From the IMG/VR virus record IMGVR_UViG_3300021958_008980, positions 12,465-76,464 of that record: DNA of 64,000 bases. One strand, 5' to 3'. The position numbers were made by a program, and so were the translations under genes. The notes below the pieces were generated by a model that saw nothing but the letters and a program-made list of their open reading frames with translations, was not told the DNA's origin and ran no database searches. The stretch is from a virus (Duplodnaviria; Caudoviricetes). Positions 22,814-47,638 of this stretch are shown piece after piece. How positions within the stretch are numbered: the stretch's first letter is position 1; each line of letters begins with the position of its first letter.

Positions 22814-23129
22814 GACATGGGTACAACTGACAAAAGATTTTGTCAAGGAATGGCCGGAAGTTTTAGACGGATTACAGTTTACAAACATGCCGGTCAAGTA
22901 CCTGATGTACATTAACATCCTCTTAAAGAACAATATCACAATACACTACGACATAGCCAAAGACCTAAAGACGAAGAAGCAGGAAACAATCGCAAAGTTT
23001 CTTAAAAAAACAATAGAAGACAATTACATGAAAATAAAGAGCGTGGACATGAAGTTCGACATACCTAAACTGAAACGTGATATGGAGTCCAAAACATCAT
23101 TGATAATGGCTAAAACTTTTAAGAAATAG
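22785..23129 (+). CDS. hypothetical protein
   Basis: Likely ATG at 22785 (MPKRQPQK...). It is the last plus-strand gene, and its stop overlaps the convergent gene by 11 nt. Confidence 0.65.
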   Translation: MPKRQPQKNKTWVQLTKDFVKEWPEVLDGLQFTNMPVKYLMYINILLKNNITIHYDIAKDLKTKKQETIAKFLKKTIEDNYMKIKSVDMKFDIPKLKRDMESKTSLIMAKTFKK

Positions 23130-24399
23130 TTTTAAATCTTTCTTTTAACCAATCTAATTCATACGACAACATCAAAGCATCATGATCATCCTTGTGTTTT
23201 TCGTAGTATGTGACTGCGTCTGTGGCACCTTTCTGTACAAAGTCTGCGTAATTACCTTTTCCCAACAGACACCATTTCCGTAGCCTGTACTGTGATTCCA
23301 CCGTCGGTTTCATTTTGCACAACTTCAACACTTCTCTAAAAGCCACACGCCAACTTATTTCTGGTGTTTGATTGAAATGGCTAGTACCACTCAGAATCGG
23401 AACAACTGTGTGTGGTTGTGACAATGTGAAATCCAATCCAGGATTAAGTGTCGCCAAACACAGTTGTTTGTTGTAAAGAAGCACTGCCCTGTGTCCATAC
23501 TCCAATCCAGTGACCGGATTTTTAGCATGGAATATATAGTGACACGGATTCTTTAGCCTGTCCGGTTGGAAACTGAAATCAAAACTGTCTTCTAATTCTA
23601 TTGTTGGGAACACAGCGAAAAAGTAATCTGTTTCACTCAATTGTGCCGCGGCATGGTACGCCTTAGTCCTTCCTTTGATACCTTGTATGCGTTTGGCCCT
23701 TGGGTATTTGTCTTTAAGAACTTCCCAATATTTTTCTGCACTTGGTTCATCATAGGACAAAAACACAATGTCCATTGGTTTCACATCATACTCAAGGTCA
23801 TAATGCACGTGTCTATCTATTTCATAAAACTGTTCTAGGTCTTTGCCACCTGGTAACAACATAATATCTTTGGTTTCTCCCCAGGTATACATTTTTAAGT
23901 CTTCCCAAAAACTAGGATAGAAATCGGGCGTGGCTGTTTGGCAATCCTTGTTGATCAACCATGTGTAAAACTTATCAGATCCTTTGTAAGCACCCAACGG
24001 GTCTCCCAGATCGAATTCGAGTTTGCCAATGGGCCTTTGCCACAAAGTTGGTTCATAATGGTAATTTATATAATTAAAATCACGTAGGAAATTTATTTCT
24101 TTCAACTGCTTTTTGAATTCATTTGTTGGCACCAACATCACATTTCCTTCTTGATTCAAGCCGGCTGTGTGCCATACGTGCAATTGGTTCTCTTCGTATA
24201 ATTCAGGAATGTAATCAAGATCCATTTTGGACAAGTCAACAAAATTTGAGAAGAACCAGAAATGGTCTGTCTTGACATCGTTTATGACACTTTTAAGTAT
24301 TTCAAAATAACTTCCTATGAAAGGCACCACCCGAGTGTTCGCAAATGGGGATTCGATGTTCTCAACATCTTTGAACCTAACTTGGATGCTATCAAACAT
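23119..24399 (-). CDS. GT-A-like glycosyltransferase homolog (DxD not evident)
   Basis: C-terminal half DIVFLSYDEPSAE...AKRIQGIKG...AYHAAAQLSETDYFF is paralogous to 36513-37409. An additional N-terminal degenerate domain is present. Confidence 0.65.
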   Translation of the reverse strand: MFDSIQVRFKDVENIESPFANTRVVPFIGSYFEILKSVINDVKTDHFWFFSNFVDLSKMDLDYIPELYEENQLHVWHTAGLNQEGNVMLVPTNEFKKQLKEINFLRDFNYINYHYEPTLWQRPIGKLEFDLGDPLGAYKGSDKFYTWLINKDCQTATPDFYPSFWEDLKMYTWGETKDIMLLPGGKDLEQFYEIDRHVHYDLEYDVKPMDIVFLSYDEPSAEKYWEVLKDKYPRAKRIQGIKGRTKAYHAAAQLSETDYFFAVFPTIELEDSFDFSFQPDRLKNPCHYIFHAKNPVTGLEYGHRAVLLYNKQLCLATLNPGLDFTLSQPHTVVPILSGTSHFNQTPEISWRVAFREVLKLCKMKPTVESQYRLRKWCLLGKGNYADFVQKGATDAVTYYEKHKDDHDALMLSYELDWLKERFKTIS

Positions 24400-25450
24400 A
24401 TATAAACTCCTTTATTTTTTCACATACATAGTCAACTTCTCTTGTTGTCAGATGTGGATAAATTGGAAGGCTGATTGCCTTTGCACAAAGTTTTTCTGCA
24501 TTTGGATACATGCCTACATTTTTTGTGTCCAATATTTTTGGGTAATGTACTTTTGTTTCTATACCTTTTGTTTCCAAGAAATTTTTTAATTCATCTCTCC
24601 TGTCAGTTAGAATAACCAATTTGTGATTGCTGGATTCGGTGTTTGGTCCTGCACACACTATTTGTACTTCTGTAAGATTTTTATGATATCTCTTACACAA
24701 CTTTGCTCTAGAACTTTGTAACCTATCAAATTTTTGTAATAGCAATAATAGTTGACAAGCATGATCTTCGGATATAAGACTGTTGTAACCATAGGTGTGT
24801 TTGCCACTAACACCATGTCTTCGTAAGGACAAAACATTATCGCGTATTTCCTTGCTGTCGGTAAGCACCATACCACCACCACCAAAACTAGGCATGTTCT
24901 TCATAGGATCAAAACTAAACACGCTGACATCTCCCAATGCACCTGATGGTATCTTTCCGTACATGGCGCCCTGTGACTGTGCGGCGTCTTCTATGAGAGG
25001 TATCCGGTGTGTATCACAATATTTCCTCAGCCTTTGATAGTTTGCAGGGTTTCCGAACATGTTTACATACAACACCGCGTCTGGTAATCCTTGACCTTGC
25101 CAATCACCAATGTTGCCATTTTCGTCTGTATCAACGAAATGAATATCTGCACCCAAGCGTTTTATTGCTCCTGACGTGGCAATGTAACTGAATGCTGGAC
25201 AGATTATTGTGTTGTCTTTGTTCAATCCCACGGCTCTCATGGCAAAGTATAAACCATCAGTAGCACTGCCTACTCCAACTGCATACTTTCTTTTGTATTT
25301 TTTTGCAATCTTTTGCTCTAACTCTTTAAGGAATTTTCCTTGTAGCACATCACCAGATTCCCATACCGCTTTGGCTCTTCTTGCAAGACGCCAACTGTAA
25401 TCGTCATACAGCCTGTCAACACCATTAAATTTTATTTTGTAACCATTCAT
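24392..25450 (-). CDS. DegT/DnrJ/EryC1/StrS PLP-dependent sugar aminotransferase
   Basis: VGSATDGL, IEDAAQSQGA, FSFDPMKN (PLP Lys), GGGGM and SLPIYP. ATG taken at 25450. Confidence 0.92.
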   Translation of the reverse strand: MNGYKIKFNGVDRLYDDYSWRLARRAKAVWESGDVLQGKFLKELEQKIAKKYKRKYAVGVGSATDGLYFAMRAVGLNKDNTIICPAFSYIATSGAIKRLGADIHFVDTDENGNIGDWQGQGLPDAVLYVNMFGNPANYQRLRKYCDTHRIPLIEDAAQSQGAMYGKIPSGALGDVSVFSFDPMKNMPSFGGGGMVLTDSKEIRDNVLSLRRHGVSGKHTYGYNSLISEDHACQLLLLLQKFDRLQSSRAKLCKRYHKNLTEVQIVCAGPNTESSNHKLVILTDRRDELKNFLETKGIETKVHYPKILDTKNVGMYPNAEKLCAKAISLPIYPHLTTREVDYVCEKIKEFIYV

Positions 25451-26375
25451 AATAATTTTCAAGTCCTTGTCTAAACGACACCTGTGGAACGTACTCTAAT
25501 AGATCTTTTGCACGTGATATGTCCAGTGTTCCCCTCATAGGGTAAAGGCTTTGCATTCCAATGTCGTTGATGTCTGATTCACTACCGGTTATATCAATAA
25601 TTGTTTCCGCTAGTGTTCTCAGGCTTGATGCATTGCCGGCTGTAATATTAAAACTGGTGTTTGCCACATCAGAATTTGCCGCTCTAATTATTCCATCGGC
25701 CGCATCATCTCTGTAAGTGAAATCAACTTTGTTCTCACCATTGTGTAAAGTGATTGTTTCATTGTTCATGGCCTTTGCAAAAAACTTAGAAACTACTCTG
25801 TCTGGAAGATCTCCAGGACCATAAACACCACTTGGACGCACGATTATGTAATTCAACCCATCACGTTTTGCAAATAATTTTGTAAGTCTCTCTCCAGTAA
25901 GTTTTGCTTCTCCGTATATGTTTGTAGGTTTAGTATTTGACTCTTCCCTTGTTCCGTCGACAAAATCTCCATACACCATGCTACTGCTGACGTACACAAA
26001 TTTTTTTGTGTTGAATTGTGTTGCGTGCCACAACAGATTAGTTGTTGTGCCAATCACTTTTGGTATTCCATTGATTGGATCTTGATCAACTATTTTTGCT
26101 CTAGGATATGTTGCTAGATGTATGACAATGTCAGGATTATATTTGAAGGCCTTCAGACACACCATCCTATCTAATATGTCTCCGTCGATGATATGCACTT
26201 TGTCTTTTTTCCAATTACGTGTTCTCCATTCTATAAGTGCGTCAAGATTTTCTTTGGTTATAATATCGTAAGTGTCTTTGTTATCAATACACTGAATGCT
26301 GTGTCCTTCGTTTGAAAGTTTCTCTATTATCTTGCTTCCTATAAATCCCAGTCCGCCCGTGATCAAATATTTCAT
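25425..26375 (-). CDS. NAD-dependent nucleotide-sugar epimerase/dehydratase (extended SDR)
   Basis: MKYLITGGLGFIGS, VSSSMVYG, YGEAK (YxxxK) and RPSGVYGPG; AGGAG SD before the ATG at 26375. Confidence 0.9.
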   Translation of the reverse strand: MKYLITGGLGFIGSKIIEKLSNEGHSIQCIDNKDTYDIITKENLDALIEWRTRNWKKDKVHIIDGDILDRMVCLKAFKYNPDIVIHLATYPRAKIVDQDPINGIPKVIGTTTNLLWHATQFNTKKFVYVSSSMVYGDFVDGTREESNTKPTNIYGEAKLTGERLTKLFAKRDGLNYIIVRPSGVYGPGDLPDRVVSKFFAKAMNNETITLHNGENKVDFTYRDDAADGIIRAANSDVANTSFNITAGNASSLRTLAETIIDITGSESDINDIGMQSLYPMRGTLDISRAKDLLEYVPQVSFRQGLENYYEWLQNKI

Positions 26376-26525
26376 CAAAACTCCTTCTTTATTCCTAGTT
26401 GTGGATTCTCCACACAACTGTCTTTGATTTCCTTCATTGTTTCCTTGTTTAGATCCACGTCACAACTCGCACTGGGTTTTATTCCGCAACCTGCTAACAA
26501 CACGAACATTATCAAATATTTCATC
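26362..26525. repeat. 15-bp direct repeat flanking a lipoprotein gene
   Basis: ATCAAATATTTCATC occurs at 26362-26376 and 26511-26525. Confidence 0.9.
26375..26524 (-). CDS. 49-aa lipoprotein (not in ORF track)
   Basis: MKYLIMFVLLAGC|GIKPSASCDVDLNKETMKEIKDSCVENPQLGIKKEF: signal peptide with lipobox LAGC. Coupled to both neighbours (ATGA and TGATG). Confidence 0.78.
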   Translation of the reverse strand: MKYLIMFVLLAGCGIKPSASCDVDLNKETMKEIKDSCVENPQLGIKKEF

Positions 26526-27993
26526 CCAATACCTTTACACCGTATTTGTTGGTAAATGCTTTACCATCTTGTCTATCATTTACAATTGGTTGTCCTTTTA
26601 TGTTCAAACTGGTGTTGAGAAGTATGGGGCAACCCGTCTGTCGTTTCCATTCCGTGAGCAGTGCGTGGAACCCTGGATTATCCGTTTTTCGCACCGTTTG
26701 TACCCTAGAAGTGTGATCGTGGTGTATTATAGCAGGAAACTCTTTACCATGCGTACACGCCGCTGTAAATTGCATATAAGGGGTGTTTTTGACTGCTTTA
26801 GGTAGCTCAAAATAGTCGTTTACATCCTCTTCCAATATGGCAGGAGCGAACGGTCTAAACTTCTGTCTTTTCTTTATACTGTTTACCAGATCCTTGATGT
26901 CCTCACCCCGCGGGTCAGCCAACAGTGATCTATTACCAAGTGCCCTAGGACCAAACTCCGCCCTACCACTTGCAACTCCCACCATTTTGTTTTCCTTTAA
27001 TTCTTTTATCAGCGCATCAACCGGATACTCACCTTCTATGTTGTGTCCCAGGAATGGGTGTTGCCAATCAAGATGTCTTTTCTCATGAGCGGCAATACAG
27101 CCTAGGCTGGATCCTGCGTCTCCGGGATTTGGAATTATCCATATGTTGTCAAACATTCCCATGTTTGCCAGCACCCTGTTAGCGGCACAATTAAGTGCCA
27201 CACCACCTGCATACACCAAGTTCCTACTGCCATACTTGGATGCCCTGGTCCATAGGTCTGCCAGCAGTTCTTCCGTCACTGCCTGTATGCTGGCCGCTAT
27301 GTCCATTACGTCTGCGTTAGGTTCCCAATCACTGAGACCCCTGTGTAGATTCTGTTTCAGTTTGAAGGGTGATTGTTCTACGAATTCATCATATATCTTC
27401 TGTTTGTACTTTGGTTGTCCGTATGCCGCCATGCCCATAAGGATGTATTCCTCTTCAGCAGGTTTTAGACCACAACGATGTGTGAATGCACTGTAGAGTA
27501 TTCCAATGCTGTGTGGATACTGAATTGTTTCTTTACGTTCAATCCAAATTTTTTCAGCAGTCGATATGGACACAGTGTCCCACTCACCAATAGCATCTAC
27601 TGTGAGTATTGTTGCACCTTCGTCCTTGAATGGTGAAGTGAAGTAACCGGCCGCGGCGTGTGAGTCGTGATGCTTCACGTACTCATCTATCTTTATGCCA
27701 AAGTGGTCAAGGTGCCATTGTGGCATCTCTGTGTAACTCATTGCCAGTCCATATTGTCCTGCGTAGAACTGTCTCGCCTTCTTGAGCAAAGGTTTTTCAT
27801 AGTAAACGACCTTATCGAATGGACCATGTGTCATTGCCTCGTCCACTATCATCTGATTGAGGTAATGATCATTCTTGACTTTAGAATATCTCTCTGCGTG
27901 TGCGGCCCATAATATTTTTCCTATGCCTCCGCTGTAATCTACAACGGCCATGGCGGCATCATGATTCATGCAGTTTATTCCTAGTATTCTCAT
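26521..27993 (-). CDS. O-carbamoyltransferase (NodU/CmcH/TobZ family)
   Basis: LGIN..NHDAA, HHDSHAAAGY, DAIGE, GGVALNC, DAGSSLG, GRAEFGPRALGNRS, FRPFAP and NTSLNIKGQP. ATG at 27993. Confidence 0.93.
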   Translation of the reverse strand: MRILGINCMNHDAAMAVVDYSGGIGKILWAAHAERYSKVKNDHYLNQMIVDEAMTHGPFDKVVYYEKPLLKKARQFYAGQYGLAMSYTEMPQWHLDHFGIKIDEYVKHHDSHAAAGYFTSPFKDEGATILTVDAIGEWDTVSISTAEKIWIERKETIQYPHSIGILYSAFTHRCGLKPAEEEYILMGMAAYGQPKYKQKIYDEFVEQSPFKLKQNLHRGLSDWEPNADVMDIAASIQAVTEELLADLWTRASKYGSRNLVYAGGVALNCAANRVLANMGMFDNIWIIPNPGDAGSSLGCIAAHEKRHLDWQHPFLGHNIEGEYPVDALIKELKENKMVGVASGRAEFGPRALGNRSLLADPRGEDIKDLVNSIKKRQKFRPFAPAILEEDVNDYFELPKAVKNTPYMQFTAACTHGKEFPAIIHHDHTSRVQTVRKTDNPGFHALLTEWKRQTGCPILLNTSLNIKGQPIVNDRQDGKAFTNKYGVKVLG

Positions 27994-28424
27994 CTGTGAG
28001 GACCCATATTTCCGTGTTTGTCTTGTATGTCTTGCTTGATTAGATATGCCCACATGTTGGCTTCTTGATGTGTTACTCTAAAATCATAAGTCGAGGGTTT
28101 TTGAAACATCTTGTTTGTGTCCTCAAACCTTCCTTCCTTTATTGTGTCCATCCAAACTGTGTAATCTGCTTTGAACTGTTTCCTTGTTTCTTCAGTTGGG
28201 CACACAAAATCGGCCACAACATTTCTATTCCTGTCAACGGCCTCTTCAGCAAGAGTCCACATGCGTAGTGATTGTCTCTTTCTACCCTCTTCCGAGAAGT
28301 CCCAATCATCTGCTTCTTTTCTCACTACATCTGCGTTAATCCATACTGCATTGAACATCGGTGCAAGTAATTTCGCCAATGTTGTTTTGCCTGATCCTGG
28401 AAGTCCCATAATTAATATCTTCAT
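27990..28424 (-). CDS. adenylylsulfate kinase (CysC)-like P-loop kinase
   Basis: MKILIMGLPGSGKTT, WINADVVR, DFSEEGR, ADFVCP and FQKP. It is short (144 aa). Confidence 0.75.
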   Translation of the reverse strand: MKILIMGLPGSGKTTLAKLLAPMFNAVWINADVVRKEADDWDFSEEGRKRQSLRMWTLAEEAVDRNRNVVADFVCPTEETRKQFKADYTVWMDTIKEGRFEDTNKMFQKPSTYDFRVTHQEANMWAYLIKQDIQDKHGNMGPHR

Positions 28425-29098
28425 TTTACTTTCAAGAATCCTTTTGCTTTTACAAGTGCTGTTTCCCAATCTTCAAGAGTTATATCGTATTCAAAGTTTT
28501 GTGTCTTATCATTTACTTGTAACTCCTTTGCTCCATTTTTTATATGGAAGTTCCTGGCCATATCCGTCAAGGGCGAAAGCGTGATCAACCTATTGAGGTG
28601 GTTTGACTTCTTGACCATCTTGTACACTTCGTTGACAATGGCACGTCCGCCTCCCTTTTTCTTGGCCCATACCGTGTATGCTATCGCCATCGAACCTTGC
28701 ACACCTGCCCTGTGTATAGATTGCAGTGCGGCATCATAACTCATCTCTTCCATCTCTTCCACTGTCCTTGGCACGTCATTTGTGAACGCGAAACACATTA
28801 TCGCGGCTATCTCACCAACATCGTCCTTCAAGCCGTAAATCTTCCTTCCGTATGATTGTCTGAATTGTAAGTCAAGTTCAGGACGCACAGGATCTTCCTT
28901 GACGTCTATGTAAGGCAATTCAACAAGTTCATACTTGGCTTCTTTGATTTTCTGCTTGGTGTATGCTTCTAAACTTTTGTAATTTTTATTTGTGTATGAT
29001 TGTAACTGTGAAAATTTCTCCAAGAGTCCAGTAACGGATGGATGTTCCTTCCATCGTTCCAAAACTTCTTTCAGTTTTTCTCTATTGAGTATTTCCAT
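28421..29098 (-). CDS. hypothetical protein, possible C-terminal GNAT-like fold
   Basis: AYTVWAKKKGGGRAIV...LITLSP...ARNFHIKNGA resembles acetyl-CoA-binding motifs A and B. Confidence 0.55.
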   Translation of the reverse strand: MEILNREKLKEVLERWKEHPSVTGLLEKFSQLQSYTNKNYKSLEAYTKQKIKEAKYELVELPYIDVKEDPVRPELDLQFRQSYGRKIYGLKDDVGEIAAIMCFAFTNDVPRTVEEMEEMSYDAALQSIHRAGVQGSMAIAYTVWAKKKGGGRAIVNEVYKMVKKSNHLNRLITLSPLTDMARNFHIKNGAKELQVNDKTQNFEYDITLEDWETALVKAKGFLKVK

Positions 29099-29101
29099 TT
29101 C

Positions 29102-29206
29102 TTATTTGTATATGAATGGGTCTTTCTTTTTTAGTTCTTTCAATCTTTTCCTGTACTTGATCTCTTGCTTGATCTTGTTAATAAGATTTTTTATCCAAGT
29201 GAACAT
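29102..29206 (-). CDS. 34-aa basic micropeptide (not in ORF track)
   Basis: MFTWIKNLINKIKQEIKYRKRLKELKKKDPFIYK; AGGAGG SD and TAATG overlap. Confidence 0.78.
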   Translation of the reverse strand: MFTWIKNLINKIKQEIKYRKRLKELKKKDPFIYK

Positions 29207-32547: not shown

Positions 32548-33826
32548 ATTTTTCAAATAGTTCCTTCCATTCGGGAAACACATCTAGTGTGTTTTCGTTT
32601 CGTATAGAATCATACTTTCTTGTCTGCGAAAAAAAATTATCTAGATGTTTTTGATTGTCTGTGGCCATCATCCATTCTATTGCAGACTGATATCCTTTGG
32701 TTGCCCTGGTAAGATGATCCTGACCTTGCAACCATTTCATGTGCGATTCATATTTCTCCTTCACCGCTTGTTTGTACTCCGCTGGTAGCAAATCCATTCT
32801 CTGCCACGTGGGGTGTTGTAAAAGATTGAAATTGAAATCCTGTGGTTTTATTAGTCCCTGATCTACCCAACTCTTATGGAAATCTGTTACGTGTAGGCTG
32901 TTTATTAATCCGACTGTCGAACTGATATAAAAATCCACCTGTGGACATATTTCCATCATTCTTTTCCTGTTGTCAACTATTTCTTTCCACACCGTGCCTT
33001 TACGCATCAGTTCTGCACGTGGTCCTTCCGCATCTAGACTGGCTCCTATGCTTACCGAATCAAACTTGTTCCATAACTCGAACACATCTATATCTTTGAA
33101 TTTGGTCCTGCTGAAATTTGTGTTGTATATCAACCTAACGTGATACATTTTTCTTTTGTCTAACTCCTTAAGTATGCGATAGTGCTCTTCCATCATTATT
33201 GGTTCACCACCCGCAAAGTAAAACTGCTCTGTGTGTTCAAACTGTTCCAACATCTGCTCCCAAAGATCGTCGGTGTGTCTTCCTACCCTCATTATTTTTG
33301 CGTGGGGAGGTGGACTGCCTGTAAGTTTTTTATGGTCCTCGTACCAATTGGAACTGAACCATGTTCCACAACTCCTGCAGGCCATGTTACATATGTTTGA
33401 GAAACGTATGTCCCAATACTTCATTACGAAATCCGCTGTGCCGTCAGGCTGTGTGTTGTTTACTAAAGGAATATTGTGACCAAAGTGTTTGTTTGAACTC
33501 AATCGCAAACTGAAAAATCCAGACTTTTCTTGGTCATAACATTTGAGGCATTCACGCGATTTCTTATTGTTCAACATTCTTACACGCATTTCTTTCATTT
33601 TTTCTCCATTGAAGACTTCCGAAAGACTCTGTTCGTTAAGATTTCCTACAGGATAAGGATCGAAAGCAAAACAGCATGGATAGGCTCTTCCGTCCGGGTA
33701 TGCATGAATGTGCATCCATGGCAACATACAGAATGTGTCACTTTCTAAAAGTAACTCCTTTTCTTTTGCAGTCATGTCGTCTATTTTAAGTTTTACGGGC
33801 TCCTTTGCCCCATACTCATATGCCAC
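32537..33826 (-). CDS. radical SAM protein with N-terminal SPASM/twitch-like Cys motif
   Basis: FCMLPWMH...PCC, CLKC, CNMACRSC and GGEP. Confidence 0.9.
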   Translation of the reverse strand: MAYEYGAKEPVKLKIDDMTAKEKELLLESDTFCMLPWMHIHAYPDGRAYPCCFAFDPYPVGNLNEQSLSEVFNGEKMKEMRVRMLNNKKSRECLKCYDQEKSGFFSLRLSSNKHFGHNIPLVNNTQPDGTADFVMKYWDIRFSNICNMACRSCGTWFSSNWYEDHKKLTGSPPPHAKIMRVGRHTDDLWEQMLEQFEHTEQFYFAGGEPIMMEEHYRILKELDKRKMYHVRLIYNTNFSRTKFKDIDVFELWNKFDSVSIGASLDAEGPRAELMRKGTVWKEIVDNRKRMMEICPQVDFYISSTVGLINSLHVTDFHKSWVDQGLIKPQDFNFNLLQHPTWQRMDLLPAEYKQAVKEKYESHMKWLQGQDHLTRATKGYQSAIEWMMATDNQKHLDNFFSQTRKYDSIRNENTLDVFPEWKELFEKYEK

Positions 33827-35159
33827 GGTACCATTCTCCTATAATTGGGAAAGTTTTTTCAAAATCTTTTCCTGTTCTATTATCATATTGGCTGTAGAAA
33901 GTTTTAAAATCTTTCTGTAATTTTTCCTGTGCGGCCGCACCTGCGTGGGGTGTTTTCACAACATCCAAATAATCGATAAGTCTTTGCGTTTGATTCACTT
34001 CCATGCCCTCTAACCATTTCTCATTAGTAGTTAAGAACTTTTGGAGGTCTCCTTTAAATTTATTCCTTAGGTCGTCTGGTAGTACAAGAGGCGATTGAAA
34101 ACTAGGAAATCTCAAAATGTTCAAAGTGAAATTCATTGTTGGTCCATAGACTTTACCTGCACCTTTGAACCATACAAGTTTCTCTAAAAACTCCGGAAGT
34201 GATTCCAAACACAATGCGTTTATTGTGGCCATGTTGTGTATTTCAGACGGCACCTTGTCTACCATCATGTGTAGAACTTGACTATGCCAATCACCATAAT
34301 CTAATCCGTCTCTTATGTATTCGGCCTGACCAAATATTGCTTCACAACTAGTGTACAAGTGAAAATTTTTAAAATTTTTTAATTTTGTTTTAAATCTATC
34401 GATGATGCTTTGCTTTGCTCCCAGATTGGAGTTTATTGCAATACGCATTTTTGGATTCATCCTGTCACCCTGTGTTTCAATCCAATCCAGCAGTCTCCAT
34501 AAATTCGGTGACATCATGGGCTCACCACCTGTGATCCTTAATTCGTCCAAACTTTTATGCAAGTCAGTCTCCCACCATTTATAGAACGCCTCAACATAGG
34601 GATTGTGTTCATCCTTCTTGTATGGTTCTGCCGATTCATGGCTGTGGGTGTAGTGATTCCTTCCATCTGATGTAAGTCCTGCGTACGGTCCATGCTGTTT
34701 TATATTGTTGGCCCAAGTAGAACTGAACGCTGGATTGCAGTATGTACAAGCAAACTGACACGTCCTATCGAAGGCGATCTCCAGTGTTTTCAGGTTACAG
34801 TCTACATCGTGGCCAGAGTCGAATGCTTCTTTAAGGTGTTCATCATCGAAAATCCTGGATTTGTACACCCTATCACTGATTGCATCACGACCTATGTCTT
34901 CAATTTTCCAGCAGTACTCACACCCTGCTGGTCTTTCTCCGTTCTGCATCTGCCTGCGCTGTTCTTTTTTTTCTTTTGTGTTGTGTATAGCACTTGGATT
35001 GTCTTTTATAGCCTGCAAATCTATCTTGTGCGGTAACGGATGGTGACAACTTGTTGTCATTCCTGATCCCAGCCATATCGTTGCATTGTACCACTTGGCT
35101 CCACAGAAACTTGCGGATTTCGTGTCCAGTACCTGGCGTTTGTATTCTAGATCATTCAT
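33816..35159 (-). CDS. radical SAM protein with N-terminal SPASM/twitch-like Cys motif
   Basis: FCGAKW...SCHH, CEYC, CQFACTYC and GGEP. The ATG at 35159 forms an ATGA overlap. Confidence 0.9.
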   Translation of the reverse strand: MNDLEYKRQVLDTKSASFCGAKWYNATIWLGSGMTTSCHHPLPHKIDLQAIKDNPSAIHNTKEKKEQRRQMQNGERPAGCEYCWKIEDIGRDAISDRVYKSRIFDDEHLKEAFDSGHDVDCNLKTLEIAFDRTCQFACTYCNPAFSSTWANNIKQHGPYAGLTSDGRNHYTHSHESAEPYKKDEHNPYVEAFYKWWETDLHKSLDELRITGGEPMMSPNLWRLLDWIETQGDRMNPKMRIAINSNLGAKQSIIDRFKTKLKNFKNFHLYTSCEAIFGQAEYIRDGLDYGDWHSQVLHMMVDKVPSEIHNMATINALCLESLPEFLEKLVWFKGAGKVYGPTMNFTLNILRFPSFQSPLVLPDDLRNKFKGDLQKFLTTNEKWLEGMEVNQTQRLIDYLDVVKTPHAGAAAQEKLQKDFKTFYSQYDNRTGKDFEKTFPIIGEWYRGI

Positions 35160-36526
35160 GAGTTCTTGCACTCCTCCCAGAACTCCTCCATCTCAGGAAA
35201 TGTGTTCAAGAACCGTGTCAGACGTCTTCTGTCATGTTCGTTAAAAAATGCGTAAAAGTTTTTCTTGTTTTGCGTACTTGTGTCCGCGTTGTCGCGCCAG
35301 AAAGCGAGATTCCTTTGCATCTTCTGTATCTCGAAGTCTTTGAATATGTGCAGGCCCTTTTCCTCTCCGGAGTTGGCCTTCATGTACTCTATGTTGGCCT
35401 CATGGATGGCCTGATATGACTCTGGCAGGATGGTGATCTGTTGCCATGCGGGCTGTCTCAACAGTGGCACGTCAAACCATACCCTCTGGTAGGTCTTTGA
35501 GTAACGTTTACGCAGTTCCATTATCTTCTCCAGCAGTCGGTCCATGCTGGTGATACTGAGGTTGTTGTAGGTGCATATGAATGTGATGGAATTACGCACA
35601 GGTATCCTGTCAAGGAACTCCTCCACGTTGTCCATCATGTAGTTGAAATCTAGTCCGTCACGTATGTACTCTGCCCGTTTGCCATATGCATCCACGGACA
35701 CGAACTGCATCATGTGTTCCACCTTCTCCTCCATGCAGATGTTCTGTGCCATGTTGAAGTATTTCTCTTTCAATTTCTTGTCGGCCGGACACATGTTGCT
35801 GGTAACGTTGAGGTGTAGGTCCTGTTTGGGGTGATCCATTACGTATTGTAGCACACGATAAGTGTTCTTGTCCATCATGGGCTCACCTCCGGTCATCCTG
35901 AAGTGCTTGAGGTTCTTGTACAGCGTTGGCCACCACTTCCAGAACGCGGTCACGTATGGGTTCTCCTCACGGTTGGGTATCGGCCTTCTGCGACCCTGAA
36001 AATGCTCGGGAGCGTTGTGTGGAGGTGTCGTCGGGTACTCGCCGTAGGTTTCCACCTCCTTGGCCCACGTTGTCGAGAACTGTGGCGAACAATAACTACA
36101 CCTGAAGTTGCAGGCGTTGTTGAAGTTGACCTCAACGTACCTGGGCGTGTGCCTTTCGTCTATAGGATTGTCTTTGATCTTGTCGAAGTCCTGGATTGCC
36201 CATGGTTCACCCGAACGGTAGTGCCTGTCAGACATCTCACCGGTCTTCTCTATGTTCCAACAATAACTGCAACCATCTGGTTTTTCGCCGGACAGCATCT
36301 GTTCACGCTGTCGCATTTTCTCCTGGGTGTTGTGCAGTGCCGCTGGATTGTCCTTCAATTGATCCGCATCTATCTCGTGCAGTGGCGGATGGTAGCAACT
36401 GTTGGTAAGTCCAGTGGGTAGGTGCAGTGACGTCTGGTTCCACTTGGCCAGGCACATCGTGGGTGAAACCTGCTCAAGTTTCTTCTGTGCCGCCATTGCA
36501 TCACTGCTGTACTTACTTGTACTCAC
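35156..36526 (-). CDS. radical SAM protein with N-terminal SPASM/twitch-like Cys motif
   Basis: MCLAKW...SCYH, CSYC, CNFRCSYC and GGEP; GTG start. Confidence 0.9.
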   Translation of the reverse strand: MSTSKYSSDAMAAQKKLEQVSPTMCLAKWNQTSLHLPTGLTNSCYHPPLHEIDADQLKDNPAALHNTQEKMRQREQMLSGEKPDGCSYCWNIEKTGEMSDRHYRSGEPWAIQDFDKIKDNPIDERHTPRYVEVNFNNACNFRCSYCSPQFSTTWAKEVETYGEYPTTPPHNAPEHFQGRRRPIPNREENPYVTAFWKWWPTLYKNLKHFRMTGGEPMMDKNTYRVLQYVMDHPKQDLHLNVTSNMCPADKKLKEKYFNMAQNICMEEKVEHMMQFVSVDAYGKRAEYIRDGLDFNYMMDNVEEFLDRIPVRNSITFICTYNNLSITSMDRLLEKIMELRKRYSKTYQRVWFDVPLLRQPAWQQITILPESYQAIHEANIEYMKANSGEEKGLHIFKDFEIQKMQRNLAFWRDNADTSTQNKKNFYAFFNEHDRRRLTRFLNTFPEMEEFWEECKNS

Positions 36527-37409
36527 GATCTTGCACTCCCTTGTTTTTGTGAGGATTCATTGCGAACTTAAAGAACTTGCTGTCTTCCGCTGTGAAATCT
36601 GCGAGCGGCACATCCATTCTTTGCCTCAGGCTCTCTCCATACAGTCGGAGCGCCTGGTCTATGTCGTTTTCCTCAAAAAATTTGTTATAAACATTTTCCA
36701 TGTTGTCTAAATCCCTAACGCCTAGGTGATCCAGTCCGTCCAGCACAGTGTTGTACATGCCTAACCTGGCACCCATCATGGCGTACTTGCCGTTCTCCAC
36801 ATCTGCACCAACGGACATCCACGTGGTGAGTGTCCTCAGGTTGGGTGGCCATATCTGCTTGGCAAAGTTGTCTGGTTGCAAAGGCCTGCCCTTCGTAGTG
36901 CTCATCTTTACACCTTCCCTGTATCCTGCCACGAACGCCTGTCTTGGGTCAGCATTTATTACTGTGGTGGAATAGCAGTTGTGCAGGTTCTCGTGTGGTA
37001 CGCCCCAGCAGAAATCAATCTGGTTCTCATCACTGTCTGCGTTTTCGTGTGTCCGCATATTGAGGCATGTCTTCTTAGACCAACCTACAAGTCCACCGTT
37101 TCCGTATACCAATCCATTTATGTTGTTCAGTGCCCGCCACCTGTGTACTGCGTTTCTGTCGGTAAGTGTAAAATCCAAAGTCTCCAATAAAAACTGTTCG
37201 TGTAATATGTTGTCACCGTCAACAGATATGAAAAAGTCCGTGTCTGCTACCTCGGCCGCGGCCTTGTGTGCGTTGTCGAAACCAACAACTCCATCAACAC
37301 GCTTGGCCCATGGCACCTTGTTCCTGAGGTCCGCCCAATTCTCTTCCTTATTAGGCTCCTTGAAACTGATGTACACGAAATCTAGATCTGCAACTTTTAC
37401 CTTGTCCAT
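36513..37409 (-). CDS. GT-A fold glycosyltransferase
   Basis: DFVYISFKEPN...AHKAAA...FFISVDGDN (DxD). ATG taken at 37409. Confidence 0.75.
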   Translation of the reverse strand: MDKVKVADLDFVYISFKEPNKEENWADLRNKVPWAKRVDGVVGFDNAHKAAAEVADTDFFISVDGDNILHEQFLLETLDFTLTDRNAVHRWRALNNINGLVYGNGGLVGWSKKTCLNMRTHENADSDENQIDFCWGVPHENLHNCYSTTVINADPRQAFVAGYREGVKMSTTKGRPLQPDNFAKQIWPPNLRTLTTWMSVGADVENGKYAMMGARLGMYNTVLDGLDHLGVRDLDNMENVYNKFFEENDIDQALRLYGESLRQRMDVPLADFTAEDSKFFKFAMNPHKNKGVQDREYK

Positions 37410-37690
37410 GTGTAACCCCCATCTACCACATCTGTTGGCCAAAACATATTTCCCTGCAACAGTCCAAGACCTTTGTCTCCTTTTTCCAACATGGAGTATT
37501 TTGACCTGGCCTGTTGCTGTGGTCTCCTACAAATTTCACCTTTTACAATATGGTACTCTGCCTCACCGTTGTTCCTGATTTCATTGAAAAGTTTTGTCGA
37601 CACCTGGTACTGCTTACCGTCTATGGTCACTTCGGGTAGTGACTTTTTATGTTCTGGCAATTTTGCGATTGACTCAAAAAATCCTGGCAT
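37397..37690 (-). CDS. hypothetical protein
   Basis: 97-aa ORF overlapping both neighbours. Confidence 0.7.
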   Translation of the reverse strand: MPGFFESIAKLPEHKKSLPEVTIDGKQYQVSTKLFNEIRNNGEAEYHIVKGEICRRPQQQARSKYSMLEKGDKGLGLLQGNMFWPTDVVDGGYTWTR

Positions 37691-38480
37691 AGATGTCCTT
37701 TATTGTGTGTTTGTCCACATAGTGCCATGGTCTTGTCACAGCGTATCCGCCTAAAAACAACTTATTTTCGGCCAAAGTTGGGAGCAGATAGGAATTTTGG
37801 TCTATGTGTCTATCCAGTTTGTTAACTGCTTTCTTGTTGTGTATCATTTTAAACCATGGATAGTTTATCAACTTCCGCTTCACTGGATCCATTATCCTGT
37901 ATGCCAATGCATACACCATGTCGGTGCTTGGATATCTATCATGACATCCTATCAGCATCTGTTCACGTACTGTTTTCCAGTTTTTTGTCAAATATTTACA
38001 GACGTGACCAAACACCCGAGAAGAAGAACAGTGCCTGAAATAGGTCAGATCACTATACAAGTTTGGCAGTTGGTTCCTGTCATGGTGTGGCCTATATGTT
38101 CTATCCCTGACCAACTTATCTTGGTAATTGTAACAGTCCACCGAAAACACCAATTCATGCCTGCACAGGTAGTTCCACCACCAATCAGTGTTGGCTGTCC
38201 ACAGCATGTCCGCGGCAAGTTTGATGGTGTGTTTGAAAGGTGACATTGTGAATGCCTTGTATTCGTTTGCCCACTTAATATCATCATTTTCGCTTTCGTC
38301 ATGCCCTAGTATTTGCACTTCATCTATCAAAGGCGAATTGATTTTGGTCTTTGAGTCTGTTATCACACACACCTTGTTATATTTGTTGTATCTTTTGATC
38401 GACTTTGCCAGTGACAGTGACAGTTCAACGTAATCTGTCTTGTCGTTATTTTGGCAGAACCATAAAAAACCCTTAGACAT
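37674..38480 (-). CDS. GT-A (GT8-like) glycosyltransferase homolog, DxD degenerate
   Basis: DYVELS..LAKSIK...VCVITD and SPFKHTIKLAADM; paralog of 38473-39219. Confidence 0.7.
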   Translation of the reverse strand: MSKGFLWFCQNNDKTDYVELSLSLAKSIKRYNKYNKVCVITDSKTKINSPLIDEVQILGHDESENDDIKWANEYKAFTMSPFKHTIKLAADMLWTANTDWWWNYLCRHELVFSVDCYNYQDKLVRDRTYRPHHDRNQLPNLYSDLTYFRHCSSSRVFGHVCKYLTKNWKTVREQMLIGCHDRYPSTDMVYALAYRIMDPVKRKLINYPWFKMIHNKKAVNKLDRHIDQNSYLLPTLAENKLFLGGYAVTRPWHYVDKHTIKDIYARIF

Positions 38481-39219
38481 AGGCTACCCCTTTGTCAATA
38501 ACATGCACATCGTTGTTTTCAATTTGTCCAACACGACCTTCGTAATTCCATTTGATGTGGCTTTCTGATATTTCTGTAACAACAGCATTTCCTGGAAGTG
38601 TTGGCAGGTTGGTTGGGATGGTCTCATATCCTCGGAAACCACCAAGTTGGTGGAGAGCGATTGCGAACGCATAATCATTCCTAAAGTTCTTGAAATCTAT
38701 TCTATAGAGCTCACAGAAATAATTATACCGTTGCTTTACGTACTTCACCATATCAAAAATTGCTTTCGCTCTCTGCGATTTTTTGAATATGATTGCTGTG
38801 GCCCACACCATCGGGATCATGGAATTCCTACTAAACCTGTAACTATCATTACCAGTAATATCATGAACCTTGTCGTGTACCATGAAGTCTTGATCTGTGT
38901 TTGCCAATGTCAACAGGTATTCCGAAAAGCAAAAGTAATCTATGTCAAGCAAAATTGTTTTTTCATATGGTGAAAGTTCGTAGGCCCTGTACCTGTCTAA
39001 GTTGTGCCATGGTTTCCTGTTTATCTGATTGCCTGTTTCATTTTCTATCAGTTTGTAGTCTATAAATCCTAGGGGTGGCATACACTTGAACGTGTCTATG
39101 TTGGTAACGATTGTTATTGGTAGTCTGAGATACTTCTTCAACAAAGGCACTGTCTTGGCCGCAATTTTGTCATAGCGGTAGGTGTCGGTGTTGAAGCAAT
39201 ATAACAATACACCTGTCAT
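38473..39219 (-). CDS. GT-A (GT8-like) glycosyltransferase
   Basis: SPYEKTILLDIDY (DxD), WATAIIFKK and RNDYAFAIAL. Confidence 0.75.
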   Translation of the reverse strand: MTGVLLYCFNTDTYRYDKIAAKTVPLLKKYLRLPITIVTNIDTFKCMPPLGFIDYKLIENETGNQINRKPWHNLDRYRAYELSPYEKTILLDIDYFCFSEYLLTLANTDQDFMVHDKVHDITGNDSYRFSRNSMIPMVWATAIIFKKSQRAKAIFDMVKYVKQRYNYFCELYRIDFKNFRNDYAFAIALHQLGGFRGYETIPTNLPTLPGNAVVTEISESHIKWNYEGRVGQIENNDVHVIDKGVAYV

Positions 39220-39224
39220 ATTGA

Positions 39225-39539
39225 CTAACCCTTTTTTATTGCTTCTTTGTAAGACTGATGATATCTGTTCAAGGCTTCCTGTTGTTTTCCTATGAGTTTA
39301 TCCAAAAAATCATCTGGCTCTTCAACCTTCATTGGATTGTCGTTACTGTCCAAAACTATAAAGTTTTGAAACTTGTCTTTAAGCACCTGTACAAGATTGA
39401 TTGTTTGTGCATTGGCCTCGAACAGGTGTCCGGAATAGGCCAAAAGCATCGATGACTTTGCTTTCTCTAATGCATTCTTTTTGTTGACTGCTATTCTGTA
39501 TGATCTGTCAGAGGTATCTTTTAATGTCTGTAAGTCCAT
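39225..39539 (-). CDS. hypothetical helical protein, first gene of the modification operon
   Basis: 104-aa ORF directly behind a sigma70 promoter. Confidence 0.72.
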   Translation of the reverse strand: MDLQTLKDTSDRSYRIAVNKKNALEKAKSSMLLAYSGHLFEANAQTINLVQVLKDKFQNFIVLDSNDNPMKVEEPDDFLDKLIGKQQEALNRYHQSYKEAIKKG

Positions 39540-39545
39540 ATCACA

Positions 39546-39574
39546 ATTATATTGTAATTATGGAATGATTTCAA
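39546..39574 (-). promoter_or_regulatory. sigma70 promoter for the glycosylation/radical SAM operon (leaderless first gene)
   Basis: On the minus strand, TTGAAA-N17-TATAAT ends 6 nt before the ATG at 39539. Confidence 0.75.
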
Positions 39575-39586
39575 CCTGAAAAAATA

Positions 39587-47631: not shown

Positions 47632-47638
47632 TATTTAT
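47632..47638 (-). promoter_or_regulatory. putative late promoter (ATAAATA), leaderless
   Basis: Lies exactly 6 nt before the ATG at 47625 and overlaps the stop of the giant gene. Confidence 0.55.

What the first reader, a model, noticed from the sequence alone, without database searches (positions are those of the whole stretch)
23119..39574. A 16.4-kb, 19-gene operon of coupled genes for glycan synthesis and tailoring, directly downstream of tail genes: candidate virion glycosylation system
Seen: from 39539 to 23119 every gene overlaps the next or is within 5 nt. The operon has its own sigma70 promoter, and I saw no terminator separating it from the upstream tail genes. It contains 4 GT-A homologs, 5 radical SAMs, an SGNH protein, a GNAT-like protein, an APS-kinase-like protein, a carbamoyltransferase, an SDR epimerase and a DegT aminotransferase. 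Known: SDR plus DegT make amino-sugar nucleotides; NodU/TobZ enzymes O-carbamoylate sugars; GT-A enzymes can glycosylate proteins; virion glycosylation by phage GTs is documented in mycobacteriophages. Inference: the phage builds a heavily decorated (aminated, carbamoylated, acylated, possibly sulfated) glycan for its baseplate or fibres, or for the host surface.
Basis: partly seen in the sequence, partly recalled or inferred. Interest (0 to 1): 0.85.

Follow-up and report, generated by a model that had tools for sequence, protein, structure and literature searches.

The report
Phage radical-SAM glycan operon beside tail-fibres
An abundant, uncultured marine jumbo phage keeps, directly behind its tail-fibre genes, a tightly packed 19-gene operon of sugar transferases, five unstudied iron-sulfur "radical SAM" enzymes and sugar-decorating enzymes.

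Summary
Nineteen minus-strand ORFs (39539 to 23119) overlap or lie at most 5 nt apart. They sit behind a promoter-like element that is conserved in 36 of 39 distinct related loci, and no terminator-like site separates them from the tail genes.

Family calls:
- Five paralogous N-terminal-twitch radical SAM enzymes (NCBIfam NF033640).
- Two GT8/glycogenin-like transferases, a third GT-A transferase with a DGD motif, and a fourth protein that carries that transferase's domain.
- A NodU/TobZ-type carbamoyltransferase, an SDR and a DegT aminotransferase.
- A small APS-kinase-like P-loop kinase.
- The "SGNH" call rests on motifs only, and the "GNAT" call on a weak lead.

Across 71 distinct IMG/VR loci the core always follows the fibre-like genes. 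That core is a Ser/Thr-rich 318-aa protein, two GT8-like genes, the GT-A gene, five rSAMs and the carbamoyltransferase. The amino-sugar cassette is variable.

In bacteria, and at a second site in this genome, the same rSAM family sits among polysaccharide or sugar genes. The cluster encodes no predicted membrane protein, flippase or initiating transferase.

A glycan assembly and tailoring pathway is well supported (about 0.8). The virion as target is plausible but unproven (about 0.4), and host-envelope modification is the main rival.

This scan has already found the same module in at least four other genomes.

The parts
40548..42176 (-). T0, tail-fibre-like protein (542 aa), the last gene with direct tail evidence. 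It is one of three paralogous fibres (with 43786-45183 and 45200-46900).
   Evidence: PHROG tail-fiber and virion-structural hits, plus a weak Peptidase_G2/IMC domain. The N-terminal ~300 aa are 40-47% identical among the paralogs.
39587..40543 (-). Tm_318, a Ser/Thr-rich (24%) protein of unknown family that always precedes the cluster. It is a candidate acceptor or fibre component.
   Evidence: No Pfam, PHROG or NCBIfam hit. Present in 59 of 59 distinct loci. It has 2287 metagenomic homologs, all unannotated.
39546..39574 (-). Conserved sigma70-like promoter element. The -10 box ends 6-7 nt before the first ATG, so the mRNA is possibly leaderless.
   Evidence: 11 of 12 match; architecture conserved in 36 of 39 distinct loci.
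39225..39539 (-). g01, 104 aa, unknown.
   Evidence: No family hit; present in 46 of 60 loci.
38473..39219 (-). g02, GT8-like retaining glycosyltransferase and paralog of g03. DxD motif at D92-I-D94.
   Evidence: hhalign to the g03 family: probability 95.9%, E 5.5e-9. Present in 61 of 61 loci.
37674..38480 (-). g03, GT8/glycogenin-like glycosyltransferase.
   Evidence: AF2 model pLDDT 95. Foldseek to glycogenin E 2.4e-8, also to alpha-1,3-GalT and Skp1 alpha-GalT. Present in 62 of 62 loci.
37397..37690 (-). g04, 97 aa, unknown.
   Evidence: No family hit; present in 40 of 62 loci.
36513..37409 (-). g05, glycosyltransferase with an N-terminal GT-A fold (DGD motif at 64-66) and a unique helical C-terminal domain.
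   Evidence: AF2 model pLDDT 90. VIA Z 9.9-8.2 to B4GALNT1, STIV A197, SunS and PBCV-1 A64R over residues 1-157. Present in 64 of 64 loci. At least 8000 metagenomic clusters, none annotated.
35156..36526 (-). rS1, N-terminal-twitch radical SAM.
   Evidence: NF033640, 325 bits.
33816..35171 (-). rS2, N-terminal-twitch radical SAM.
   Evidence: NF033640, 298 bits.
32537..33826 (-). rS3, N-terminal-twitch radical SAM.
   Evidence: NF033640, 411 bits. SPASM at residues 33-97 lies before the rSAM core.
31141..32583 (-). rS4, N-terminal-twitch radical SAM.
   Evidence: NF033640, 316 bits.
29993..31159 (-). rS5, N-terminal-twitch radical SAM.
   Evidence: NF033640, 367 bits.
29206..30000 (-). g11, SGNH-like by motif only (GCSFT, G52..N55, D243..H246).
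   Evidence: Invariant motif columns. No HMM or PDB support. Present in 53 of 63 loci.
29102..29206 (-). g12, 34-aa basic peptide with an invariant C-terminal DPFIYK. It always lies upstream of the carbamoyltransferase.
   Evidence: 277 representatives at 50% identity.
28421..29098 (-). g13, 225 aa, possibly GNAT-like (weak lead); variable.
   Evidence: Atlas neighbours: 13-24% carry MCD and 20% Acetyltransf_1. Present in 32 of 60 loci.
27990..28424 (-). g14, small P-loop kinase, APS-kinase-like; variable.
   Evidence: APS_kinase E 9e-9, AAA_33 E 3e-9. All NCBIfam equivalog cut-offs missed. Present in 15 of 56 loci.
26521..27993 (-). g15, NodU/TobZ-type carbamoyltransferase.
   Evidence: Carbam_trans_C 185 bits and Carbam_trans_N 149 bits. 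Present in 55 of 56 loci.
26375..26524 (-). g16, 49-aa lipobox lipoprotein, an inserted accessory gene.
   Evidence: Conserved peptide with LxGC in 11 of 40 loci.
25425..26375 (-). g17, SDR with an epimerase-type SSS...YGEAK catalytic set; variable cassette.
   Evidence: Epimerase E 5e-43; motifs.
24392..25450 (-). g18, DegT/PseC-like sugar aminotransferase; variable cassette.
   Evidence: DegT_DnrJ_EryC1 E 4e-73. PseC 165 bits, below its cut-off.
23119..24399 (-). g19, two-domain protein. Residues 206-364 are homologous to the GT-A domain of g05, but the DGD motif is replaced.
   Evidence: BLASTP E 3e-21, 29% identity.

Best explanation
The operon encodes a soluble, cytoplasmic pathway that assembles and heavily tailors a glycan. 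It is conserved as part of the phage's host-recognition (tail-fibre) module.

Proposed steps (all inferred):
1. A strain-variable cassette (SDR g17, DegT g18, possibly the GNAT-like g13) converts host UDP/NDP-sugars into amino-sugar donors.
2. Two retaining GT8-like transferases (g02, g03) and the GT-A enzymes (g05, perhaps g19) build an oligosaccharide on a cytoplasmic acceptor.
3. Five non-redundant N-terminal-twitch radical SAM enzymes carry out radical chemistry on sugar C-H bonds. This could be oxidation, epimerisation, deoxygenation or C-C/C-methyl chemistry; the exact reactions are unknown.
4. The NodU/TobZ-type enzyme, possibly with the 34-aa peptide g12, O-carbamoylates the glycan. 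The SGNH-like protein and the small kinase add or remove acyl and phosphate (or sulfate-donor) groups.

My best guess for the acceptor is the Ser/Thr-rich protein encoded immediately upstream (Tm_318) or the paralogous fibres. That would give glycosylated fibres.

What is shown: the folds and families, the synteny, and the absence of export machinery. What is inferred: every chemical step and the acceptor.

Sub-confidences: glycan pathway about 0.8; virion protein as acceptor about 0.4.
For: Enzyme families:
- g03 has a GT8 fold and g02 is its paralog.
- g05 has a GT-A fold with DGD, and its nearest structures include protein- and virion-glycosylating enzymes: SunS, PBCV-1 A64R, STIV A197, Mimivirus R655.
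- Carbamoyltransferase, SDR and DegT.

Sugar context of the rSAM family in three independent settings:
- A Crocinitomicaceae chromosome locus with UDP-Glc dehydrogenase, SDR, carbamoyltransferase, a GT4 fusion, sulfotransferase, GDSL and an ABC transporter.
- A Bdellovibrionota locus with GT2 enzymes.
- A sixth copy in this genome, followed directly by a GT4 and a GalE-like epimerase.
- The N-terminal auxiliary-cluster region matches the twitch domain of BtrN, an aminocyclitol dehydrogenase.

Linkage to the fibres:
- In 71 distinct loci spanning 47-87% rS3 identity, the order T0 - Tm_318 - GT8 x2 - GT-A - rSAMs is invariant.
- The order persists in a distant lineage that has a single, fused rSAM.
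- Same strand as the tail genes, with no terminator-like site between them.

No classical export route: no predicted membrane protein, initiating phosphoglycosyltransferase, flippase, polymerase or transporter.
Against: - No experiment or read data bear on the acceptor.
- The cluster has its own conserved sigma70-like promoter, and a related motif stands before non-structural plus-strand genes. Its expression may therefore be uncoupled from late tail expression.
- Bacterial GT8 enzymes mostly extend LPS cores at the cytoplasmic membrane face and need no membrane domain of their own, so the lack of membrane proteins does not exclude a host glycolipid acceptor.
- In bacteria the same rSAM family belongs to cell-surface polysaccharide loci.
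- Tm_318 has no demonstrated structural role.
- The nearest solved rSAM core is a peptide-modifying enzyme, 8VPO.
Confidence: 0.4

Rival explanations
1. The pathway remodels the infected host's envelope glycan. It would act on LPS/LOS core or on capsule precursors at the cytoplasmic face, and host machinery would then export the product. The effect would be to block superinfection, or to stop progeny being trapped on debris.
For: - GT8 is the classical LPS-core family (own knowledge).
- This is the published reading of the analogous GT8 / LPS-like / radical SAM cassettes in pelagimyophage host-recognition clusters (PMC7029224).
- Bacterial homologous loci make surface polysaccharides and carry an ABC transporter.
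- The cluster's own sigma70-like promoter suggests transcription by host RNA polymerase.
- An Llp-like small lipoprotein gene is inserted in the cluster in 11 of 40 loci.
Against: - There is no initiating transferase, lipid-carrier enzyme, flippase or transporter.
- It is a very large investment (9 or more conserved enzymes) for a lytic phage.
- The strict, deep linkage to one Ser/Thr-rich protein and to the fibres is not required by this model.
Confidence: 0.3
2. The operon makes a free or secreted small glycoside, such as an aminoglycoside- or nucleoside-like metabolite.
For: The enzyme palette is typical of aminoglycoside clusters (own knowledge): DegT, SDR, a TobZ-type carbamoyltransferase, a twitch rSAM related to BtrN, a kinase and transferases.
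Against: - The conserved core lacks the aminotransferase and SDR genes, which are variable.
- There is no cyclitol or scaffold synthase and no exporter.
- Linkage to the fibres is left unexplained.
Confidence: 0.08
3. The operon hypermodifies phage DNA with a tailored sugar.
For: - Phage GT-A enzymes glycosylate DNA (cited in PMC12619734).
- P-loop kinases, PLP enzymes and rSAMs occur in thymidine hypermodification pathways (own knowledge).
Against: - The operon is located in the tail module, not near replication or nucleotide genes.
- The kinase and the PLP enzyme are variable.
- No DNA-binding or base-exchange enzyme is present.
Confidence: 0.05
4. The five rSAMs mature a peptide or protein (RiPP-like, or cross-links in a fibre protein), and the sugar enzymes are secondary.
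For: - The closest solved rSAM core is the RiPP cyclopropyl synthase 8VPO (E 7e-8), followed by SkfB.
- A highly conserved 34-aa peptide (g12) lies in the operon.
Against: - The rSAMs have no RiPP-recognition domain.
- g12 travels with the carbamoyltransferase, not with the rSAMs.
- The family's bacterial and second phage contexts are sugar loci.
Confidence: 0.05

Closest known systems
NCBIfam NF033640, N_Twi_rSAM (twitch domain-containing radical SAM protein)
   Same: All five tandem enzymes, and a sixth elsewhere in the genome, score far above the family cut-off. They have the N-terminal 4-Cys region, CxxxCxxC and GGEP.
   Different: I found no characterised member of the family in the searches run. 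Here five anciently diverged paralogs (19-27% identity) stand in fixed order inside a phage operon.
Host-recognition cluster of pelagimyophages and cyanomyophages (tail fibres plus GT8, LPS-like genes and radical SAM cassettes; PMC7029224)
   Same: Marine myoviruses with sugar transferases (mostly GT8), sugar-nucleotide genes and radical SAM cassettes embedded next to the tail fibres. Function is untested.
   Different: This is a different phage lineage: its baseplate wedge is closest to Atu_ph07/RaK2-type jumbo phages at 32-38% identity. It has a fixed 9-gene core with five rSAMs and a carbamoyltransferase, rather than scattered cassettes. The published reading is host O-chain modification.
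Virus-encoded virion glycosylation: mycobacteriophage capsid/tail-tube glycans (Freeman et al. 2023, cited in PMC12619734); PBCV-1 and Mimivirus capsid/fibril glycosylation
   Same: Soluble virus-encoded GT-A enzymes. In Mimivirus there is also an SDR, DegT and acetyltransferase set that makes amino sugars for virion proteins (own knowledge). PBCV-1 A64R and Mimivirus R655 are among the structural neighbours of g05.
   Different: No radical SAM or carbamoyltransferase is known in those systems. Here no glycan on a virion protein has been shown.
Bacteroidota/Bdellovibrionota polysaccharide loci with N_Twi rSAMs and a carbamoyltransferase-SxtJ-DUF5989 trio
   Same: The same rSAM family (24-40% identity), a homologous carbamoyltransferase (30-35%), SDR and GDSL enzymes, and a small peptide ending in PFIY next to the carbamoyltransferase.
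   Different: The bacterial loci have membrane and export parts: a UbiA-GT4 fusion, an ABC transporter, and the membrane peptides SxtJ and DUF5989. The phage has none, and its 34-aa peptide lacks the transmembrane helix.
TobZ/NodU O-carbamoyltransferases
   Same: Both the Kae1-like and the YrdC-like domain are present and score above the Pfam cut-offs, and the His-rich metal motif is conserved.
   Different: The NodU equivalog cut-off is not reached (149 bits against 1000). The substrate is unknown.

Membership tests
NF033640 N_Twi_rSAM | HMM score above the curated cut-off (170 bits) | tested here: met
   298-411 bits for all five; the sixth copy scores 253 bits.
NF033640 N_Twi_rSAM | An auxiliary-cluster Cys motif N-terminal to the CxxxCxxC radical SAM core | tested here: met
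   Invariant C33, C52, C93 and C96, then C146, C150 and C153. Pfam SPASM lies N-terminal of Radical_SAM. The region aligns to the BtrN twitch domain.
GT8 (glycogenin/LgtC-like retaining GT-A) | GT8 fold | tested here: met
   g03 model pLDDT 95; Foldseek E 2.4e-8, probability 1.00 to glycogenin. g02 is linked by hhalign at 95.9%.
GT8 (glycogenin/LgtC-like retaining GT-A) | DxD metal motif plus downstream His/Lys | tested here: inconclusive
   g02 has D92-I-D94. The g03 family has E-A-D, but this window's g03 reads A-A-D. D91, D187, H253 and K257 are invariant across both families. Correspondence to glycogenin residues was not checked in 3D.
GT8 (glycogenin/LgtC-like retaining GT-A) | Pfam/NCBIfam family HMM match | tested here: not met
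   No hit at E 0.01-0.05.
GT-A glycosyltransferase (g05) | GT-A Rossmann-like fold with DxD | tested here: met
   Z 9.9-8.0 over residues 1-157 (rmsd 3.1-3.8 A, 134-143 residues aligned) to many GT-A enzymes. D64-G-D66 is invariant. Nucleotidyltransferases of the same fold also score Z about 8.6, so transferase activity is inferred.
SGNH/GDSL hydrolase (g11) | Blocks I, III and V (GDS-like Ser, GxN, DxxH) and a family HMM | tested here: inconclusive
   Motif columns are invariant. No Pfam hit in any of 24 members, no PDB profile hit, and no hhalign link to a bacterial GDSL protein.
GNAT acyltransferase (g13) | GNAT fold or HMM | tested here: inconclusive
   No HMM hit. The only lead is Atlas feature neighbours, of which a minority carry MCD or Acetyltransf_1.
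APS kinase (CysC) | Family HMM above the equivalog cut-off; full-length fold with the lid | tested here: inconclusive
   Pfam APS_kinase scores 35.9 bits (cut-off 21.1) but covers only model positions 4-94 of 152, and AAA_33 scores equally well. NCBIfam apsK scores 26.7 against 138.7. The P-loop and a DFS motif are present.
NodU/TobZ/CmcH carbamoyltransferase | Carbam_trans_N and Carbam_trans_C domains | tested here: met
   149.5 and 185.3 bits.
DegT/DnrJ/EryC1 sugar aminotransferase | Family HMM | tested here: met
   247 bits. No equivalog cut-off is met, so the sugar is unknown.
DUF5989 / SxtK-like carbamoyltransferase-associated peptide (g12) | PF19451 HMM; transmembrane helix; position next to a carbamoyltransferase | tested here: not met
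   There is no PF19451 hit for g12, while the bacterial peptide scores E 2e-25. g12 has no hydrophobic segment. hhalign is weak (E 0.002-0.03, probability 13% or less). Only the PFIY end, the basic patch and the gene position are shared.
Classical surface-polysaccharide locus (Wzx/Wzy or ABC type) | Initiating phosphoglycosyltransferase, flippase/polymerase or transporter | tested here: not met
   No such Pfam family and no predicted membrane protein among the 19 products.
Virion glycosylation system | Glycan covalently bound to a virion protein | not testable with these tools
   Only genetic linkage is available.

The most novel reading that the evidence does not exclude
An abundant marine jumbo-phage lineage glycosylates its own tail-fibre proteins. 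The glycan's sugars would be rewritten by five dedicated radical SAM enzymes and then carbamoylated. This would be the first radical-SAM glycan tailoring assigned to the NF033640 family, and the first elaborate virion glycosylation in a phage of this lineage (its host is unknown).
Probability: 0.3. Interest if true: 0.8.

Novelty: new variant of a known kind. Interest (0 to 1): 0.6.

Why it matters
- Reach: the module is very common in ocean metagenomes. The GT-A gene alone has at least 8000 clusters at 90% identity, all unannotated. Tm_318 has 2287 homologs.
- Enzymology: it offers a compact, soluble, five-enzyme entry point into a radical SAM family for which I found no known chemistry. That family also decorates bacterial surface polysaccharides.
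- Phage biology: if the glycan sits on the fibres, it changes how host recognition and antigenic variation of abundant marine phages should be read. If it goes to the host envelope, it is a large, lytic-phage-encoded surface-remodelling system.
- Either outcome can be tested by expressing a handful of soluble proteins.

Tried and rejected
Searches that returned nothing useful:
- Megablast of the 16.4 kb against the phage collection: no match.
- PDB profile searches for the g02, g05 and g11 families: nothing meaningful.
- Single-sequence PDB search for rS3: nothing.
- g11 as SGNH: hhalign against a bacterial GDSL protein failed, and a Pfam scan of all 24 members gave no GDSL hit.
- Atlas searches for Tm_318 and g13 returned only viral hypothetical proteins.
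- The Vibrio phage K566 rSAM locus gave no informative annotation.
- The first rSAM alignment was too diverged for a genome scan.

Ideas rejected:
- Second 11-of-12 promoter-like site at 29276-29247. Its TTGAC comes from the Leu-Asp codons of the conserved HPLDxAH block, and the full pattern is present in only 3 of 41 loci.
- g12 as a member of DUF5989: rejected at the HMM level. A search of 1.84 billion representatives found 277 g12-like peptides but no membrane-spanning intermediate.

Full report
CONTEXT. The window is part of a 76-kb IMG/VR fragment. Its baseplate wedge protein (60483-63965) is 32-38% identical to those of Atu_ph07, SCTP-2 and RaK2-type jumbo myoviruses. Minus-strand genes run without real gaps from 63965 to 23119. 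They comprise the baseplate wedge, a 4282-aa giant protein, three paralogous fibre proteins that share an N-terminal ~300 aa, further small genes, and then the cluster in question.

OBSERVATION.
- ORF listing and junction analysis give 17 ORFs of at least 80 aa. Adding a 49-aa lipobox ORF and a 34-aa ORF that exactly fills the only apparent gap (29099-29205) gives 19 genes.
- With the best in-frame starts, all 18 junctions are overlaps or gaps of at most 5 nt. This is normal packing for this genome; the tail genes are packed the same way.
- The only real spacer is 47 nt (39540-39586) and holds TTGAAA-17-TATAAT.
- Promoter-like matches as a class are no more frequent than in shuffled sequence. 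This element, however, is conserved in 36 of 39 distinct related loci as TTGA..CATAATTA..TGTATAAT, followed by 6-7 nt and the ATG. It is therefore a real signal, and it implies a very short or absent leader (inference).
- A related half-motif occurs before several non-structural plus-strand genes (7 matches against 2.2 expected).
- No terminator-like site separates the cluster from the tail genes.

WHAT THE GENES ARE.
- g06-g10 are five members of NF033640 (298-411 bits against a cut-off of 170). The auxiliary-cluster cysteines lie N-terminal of the CxxxCxxC core. The paralogs are only 19-27% identical to one another, yet each has orthologs in fixed order in every related locus. They are therefore five distinct functions, not recent duplicates.
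- g15 is a full-length NodU/TobZ-type carbamoyltransferase, g17 an SDR with the epimerase-type Ser/Tyr/Lys set, and g18 a DegT/PseC-like aminotransferase.
- g14 is a small P-loop kinase whose best but partial match is APS kinase.
- Eight products had no HMM hit at all.
- I built alignments from related loci and predicted two structures. g03 (pLDDT 95) is a GT8/glycogenin-like retaining transferase (Foldseek E 2.4e-8), and g02 is its paralog (hhalign 95.9%).
- g05 (pLDDT 90) has an N-terminal GT-A domain with an invariant DGD motif. It scores Z 9.9-8.2 to B4GALNT1, STIV A197, SunS and PBCV-1 A64R, and carries a helical C-terminal domain of its own.
- Residues 206-364 of g19 are homologous to g05 (E 3e-21), but the DGD motif is replaced.
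- g11 carries invariant GCSFT, GxN and DxxH blocks, but no profile method supports an SGNH assignment.
- g13 is GNAT-like only by a weak Atlas lead.
- None of the 19 products has a predicted membrane segment, apart from the signal-peptide-like stretch implied by the lipobox of the 49-aa lipoprotein.

SYNTENY.
- A scan of IMG/VR with rS3 returned 80 loci at 47-87% identity, which give 71 distinct gene-order signatures.
- Among loci that reach far enough, the following are present: T0 in 50/50, Tm_318 in 59/59, g02 in 61/61, g03 in 62/62, g05 in 64/64, each rSAM in 67-71 (rS4 in 67 of 69 loci, the other four in every locus), and g15 in 55/56.
- Less constant genes are g11 (53/63), g12 (at least 50/62), g13 (32/60), g14 (15/56), g16 (11/40), g17 (28/40) and g18 (30/39). 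These are often replaced or inverted.
- The conserved core is therefore Tm_318, two GT8-like genes, the GT-A gene, five rSAMs, the peptide and the carbamoyltransferase. The amino-sugar part is a swappable cassette.
- A more distant lineage, with contigs binned into a 'Rickettsiales' MAG, keeps T1-T0-Tm-g01-g02-g03-g05 followed by a single rSAM fused into a 735-aa protein.

WHAT THE rSAM FAMILY DOES ELSEWHERE.
- A genome scan found the family (24-40% identity) mainly in Bacteroidota and Bdellovibrionota, singly or in tandem arrays, often near a carbamoyltransferase and an SDR.
- On a Crocinitomicaceae chromosome three copies lie among UDP-glucose dehydrogenase, SDR, carbamoyltransferase, SxtJ, DUF5989, a UbiA-GT4-GDSL fusion, a sulfotransferase, GDSL, two 2OG oxygenases and an ABC transporter.
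- In a Bdellovibrionota contig they alternate with GT2 enzymes.
- In this phage a sixth copy is followed directly by a GT4 and a GalE-like epimerase.
- All three independent contexts are sugar contexts. The solved relatives do not discriminate: a RiPP cyclopropyl synthase core, SkfB, viperin, the BtrN twitch domain and BlsE.

THE 34-aa PEPTIDE.
- g12 is under strong protein-level constraint. Its C-terminal DPFIYK is invariant and ..YRKRLKELKKK.. is nearly so, even where the rSAMs are about 50% identical.
- The family has 277 representatives at 50% identity.
- It always precedes the carbamoyltransferase, directly so where g13 and g14 are absent.
- In the bacterial loci a 49-aa DUF5989 membrane peptide ending in APFIYSLF, with SxtJ, occupies the same position.
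- Homology is not demonstrated.
- A complex prediction of g12 with g15 gave weak support. The median score was 0.45 and the best control 0.00. The mark was reached by 58 of 80 solved complexes and 2 of 110 mismatches, but scores of 0.60 or under were reached by only 7 of those 80 and by both passing mismatches. Runs agreed in at least 62% of contacts, and the partner pLDDT was at least 62.
- I treat 'carbamoyltransferase accessory peptide' as a lead. A regulatory leader or arrest peptide is an alternative.

MECHANISM AND TARGET.
- The enzyme set and contexts make a glycan assembly and tailoring pathway the clear best reading (about 0.8).
- The pathway is entirely soluble and lacks every classical export component. 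The acceptor must therefore be cytoplasmic or at the inner membrane face.
- For virion proteins as acceptor: the invariant linkage to the fibres and to one Ser/Thr-rich protein, and the resemblance of the transferases to protein- and virion-glycosylating enzymes.
- For the host envelope: the operon's own sigma70-like promoter, the usual role of GT8 enzymes, the bacterial homolog loci, the inserted lipoprotein gene, and the published reading of analogous pelagimyophage clusters (PMC7029224).
- My odds are about 0.4 virion, 0.3 host envelope, and small shares for a free metabolite, DNA or peptide maturation.

NOVELTY.
- Phage sugar-gene clusters beside tail fibres, including GT8 and radical SAM cassettes, have been described. 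Virion glycosylation is known in mycobacteriophages and giant viruses. The rSAM family has an NCBIfam model.
- What is new is the fixed five-rSAM, three-to-four-GT, carbamoyltransferase core and its strict coupling to the fibre genes in a very abundant lineage.
- Earlier notes of this scan describe the same module in at least four other genomes, with similar verdicts, so this window is a further instance.
- Added here: the fold evidence for the transferases, the presence statistics, the bacterial and intragenomic sugar contexts, the conserved promoter, and the peptide/DUF5989 parallel.

Noticed in passing
window 39540-39586 and the homologous spacers of L013-L091: The promoter-like element before the operon is conserved almost base for base (TTGA..CATAATTA..TGTATAAT), while the flanking proteins are only 40-57% identical. 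The -10 box ends 6-7 nt before the ATG, which suggests a leaderless or near-leaderless mRNA. Short inverted repeats overlap the -10 box in several variants.
   Followed up: partly
window 29102-29206: The 34-aa peptide family has an invariant C-terminal DPFIYK and a poly-basic run. There are 277 representatives, and some are tandem duplicates within one ORF. It could be an enzyme accessory subunit or a translational arrest/leader peptide.
   Followed up: partly
window 26375-26524: A 49-aa lipobox lipoprotein gene is inserted between the carbamoyltransferase and the SDR. It is present in only 11 of 40 related loci but is conserved as a protein. In its position next to host-recognition genes it resembles T5 Llp-type exclusion lipoproteins (own knowledge).
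   Followed up: partly
G000:C1:11650-12756 (ends at window 310), window 307-2461: A sixth N-terminal-twitch rSAM is translationally coupled to a GT4 glycosyltransferase and a GalE-like epimerase, just before folE and the deazaguanine genes.
   Followed up: partly
window 16636-17901 (+); L148:16422-17090: A protein with an Asp/Asn beta-hydroxylase (LpxO-type 2OG oxygenase) domain is encoded on the other strand here. Its homolog lies inside the glycan cluster of a distant related lineage.
   Followed up: no
window 47635-60483: DGST occurs 17 times in the 4282-aa giant protein, against 0.22 expected from shuffles. It mostly sits in a G/A-DGST-x-x-F/Y-T context that looks like the start of a repeated beta-sandwich domain rather than a proven sequon.
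   Followed up: partly
window 38214-38216 (residue 89 of g03): This window's g03 has Ala where at least 90% of orthologs have the Glu of the E-A-D metal motif.
   Followed up: no
window 29247-29276: An 11-of-12 sigma70-like match inside g11 is a by-product of the codons for the conserved HPLDxAH block. It is not a conserved promoter (full pattern in 3 of 41 loci).
   Followed up: yes
L093-L101, L148, L152: Contigs carrying this phage module are binned into MAGs labelled Verrucomicrobia, Betaproteobacteria, Rickettsiales, Flavobacterium, Legionellales, Polynucleobacter, Haliscomenobacter and Porticoccaceae. This is probably phage DNA mis-binned, so the labels give no reliable host.
   Followed up: no
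L148:6906-9113: In a distant lineage the single rS3-like rSAM is fused to a C-terminal extension of about 300 aa and unknown family (735 aa in all).
   Followed up: no
L012:288-824 and 1120-1440 (just upstream of the window): A redoxin/AhpC-type protein and a small SET-domain protein are encoded immediately before the sixth rSAM.
   Followed up: no
window ~42180-42360 (-): An unlisted ORF of about 59 aa fills the apparent 205-nt gap between two tail-fibre-region genes. The tail block is therefore as tightly packed as the glycan operon.
   Followed up: no
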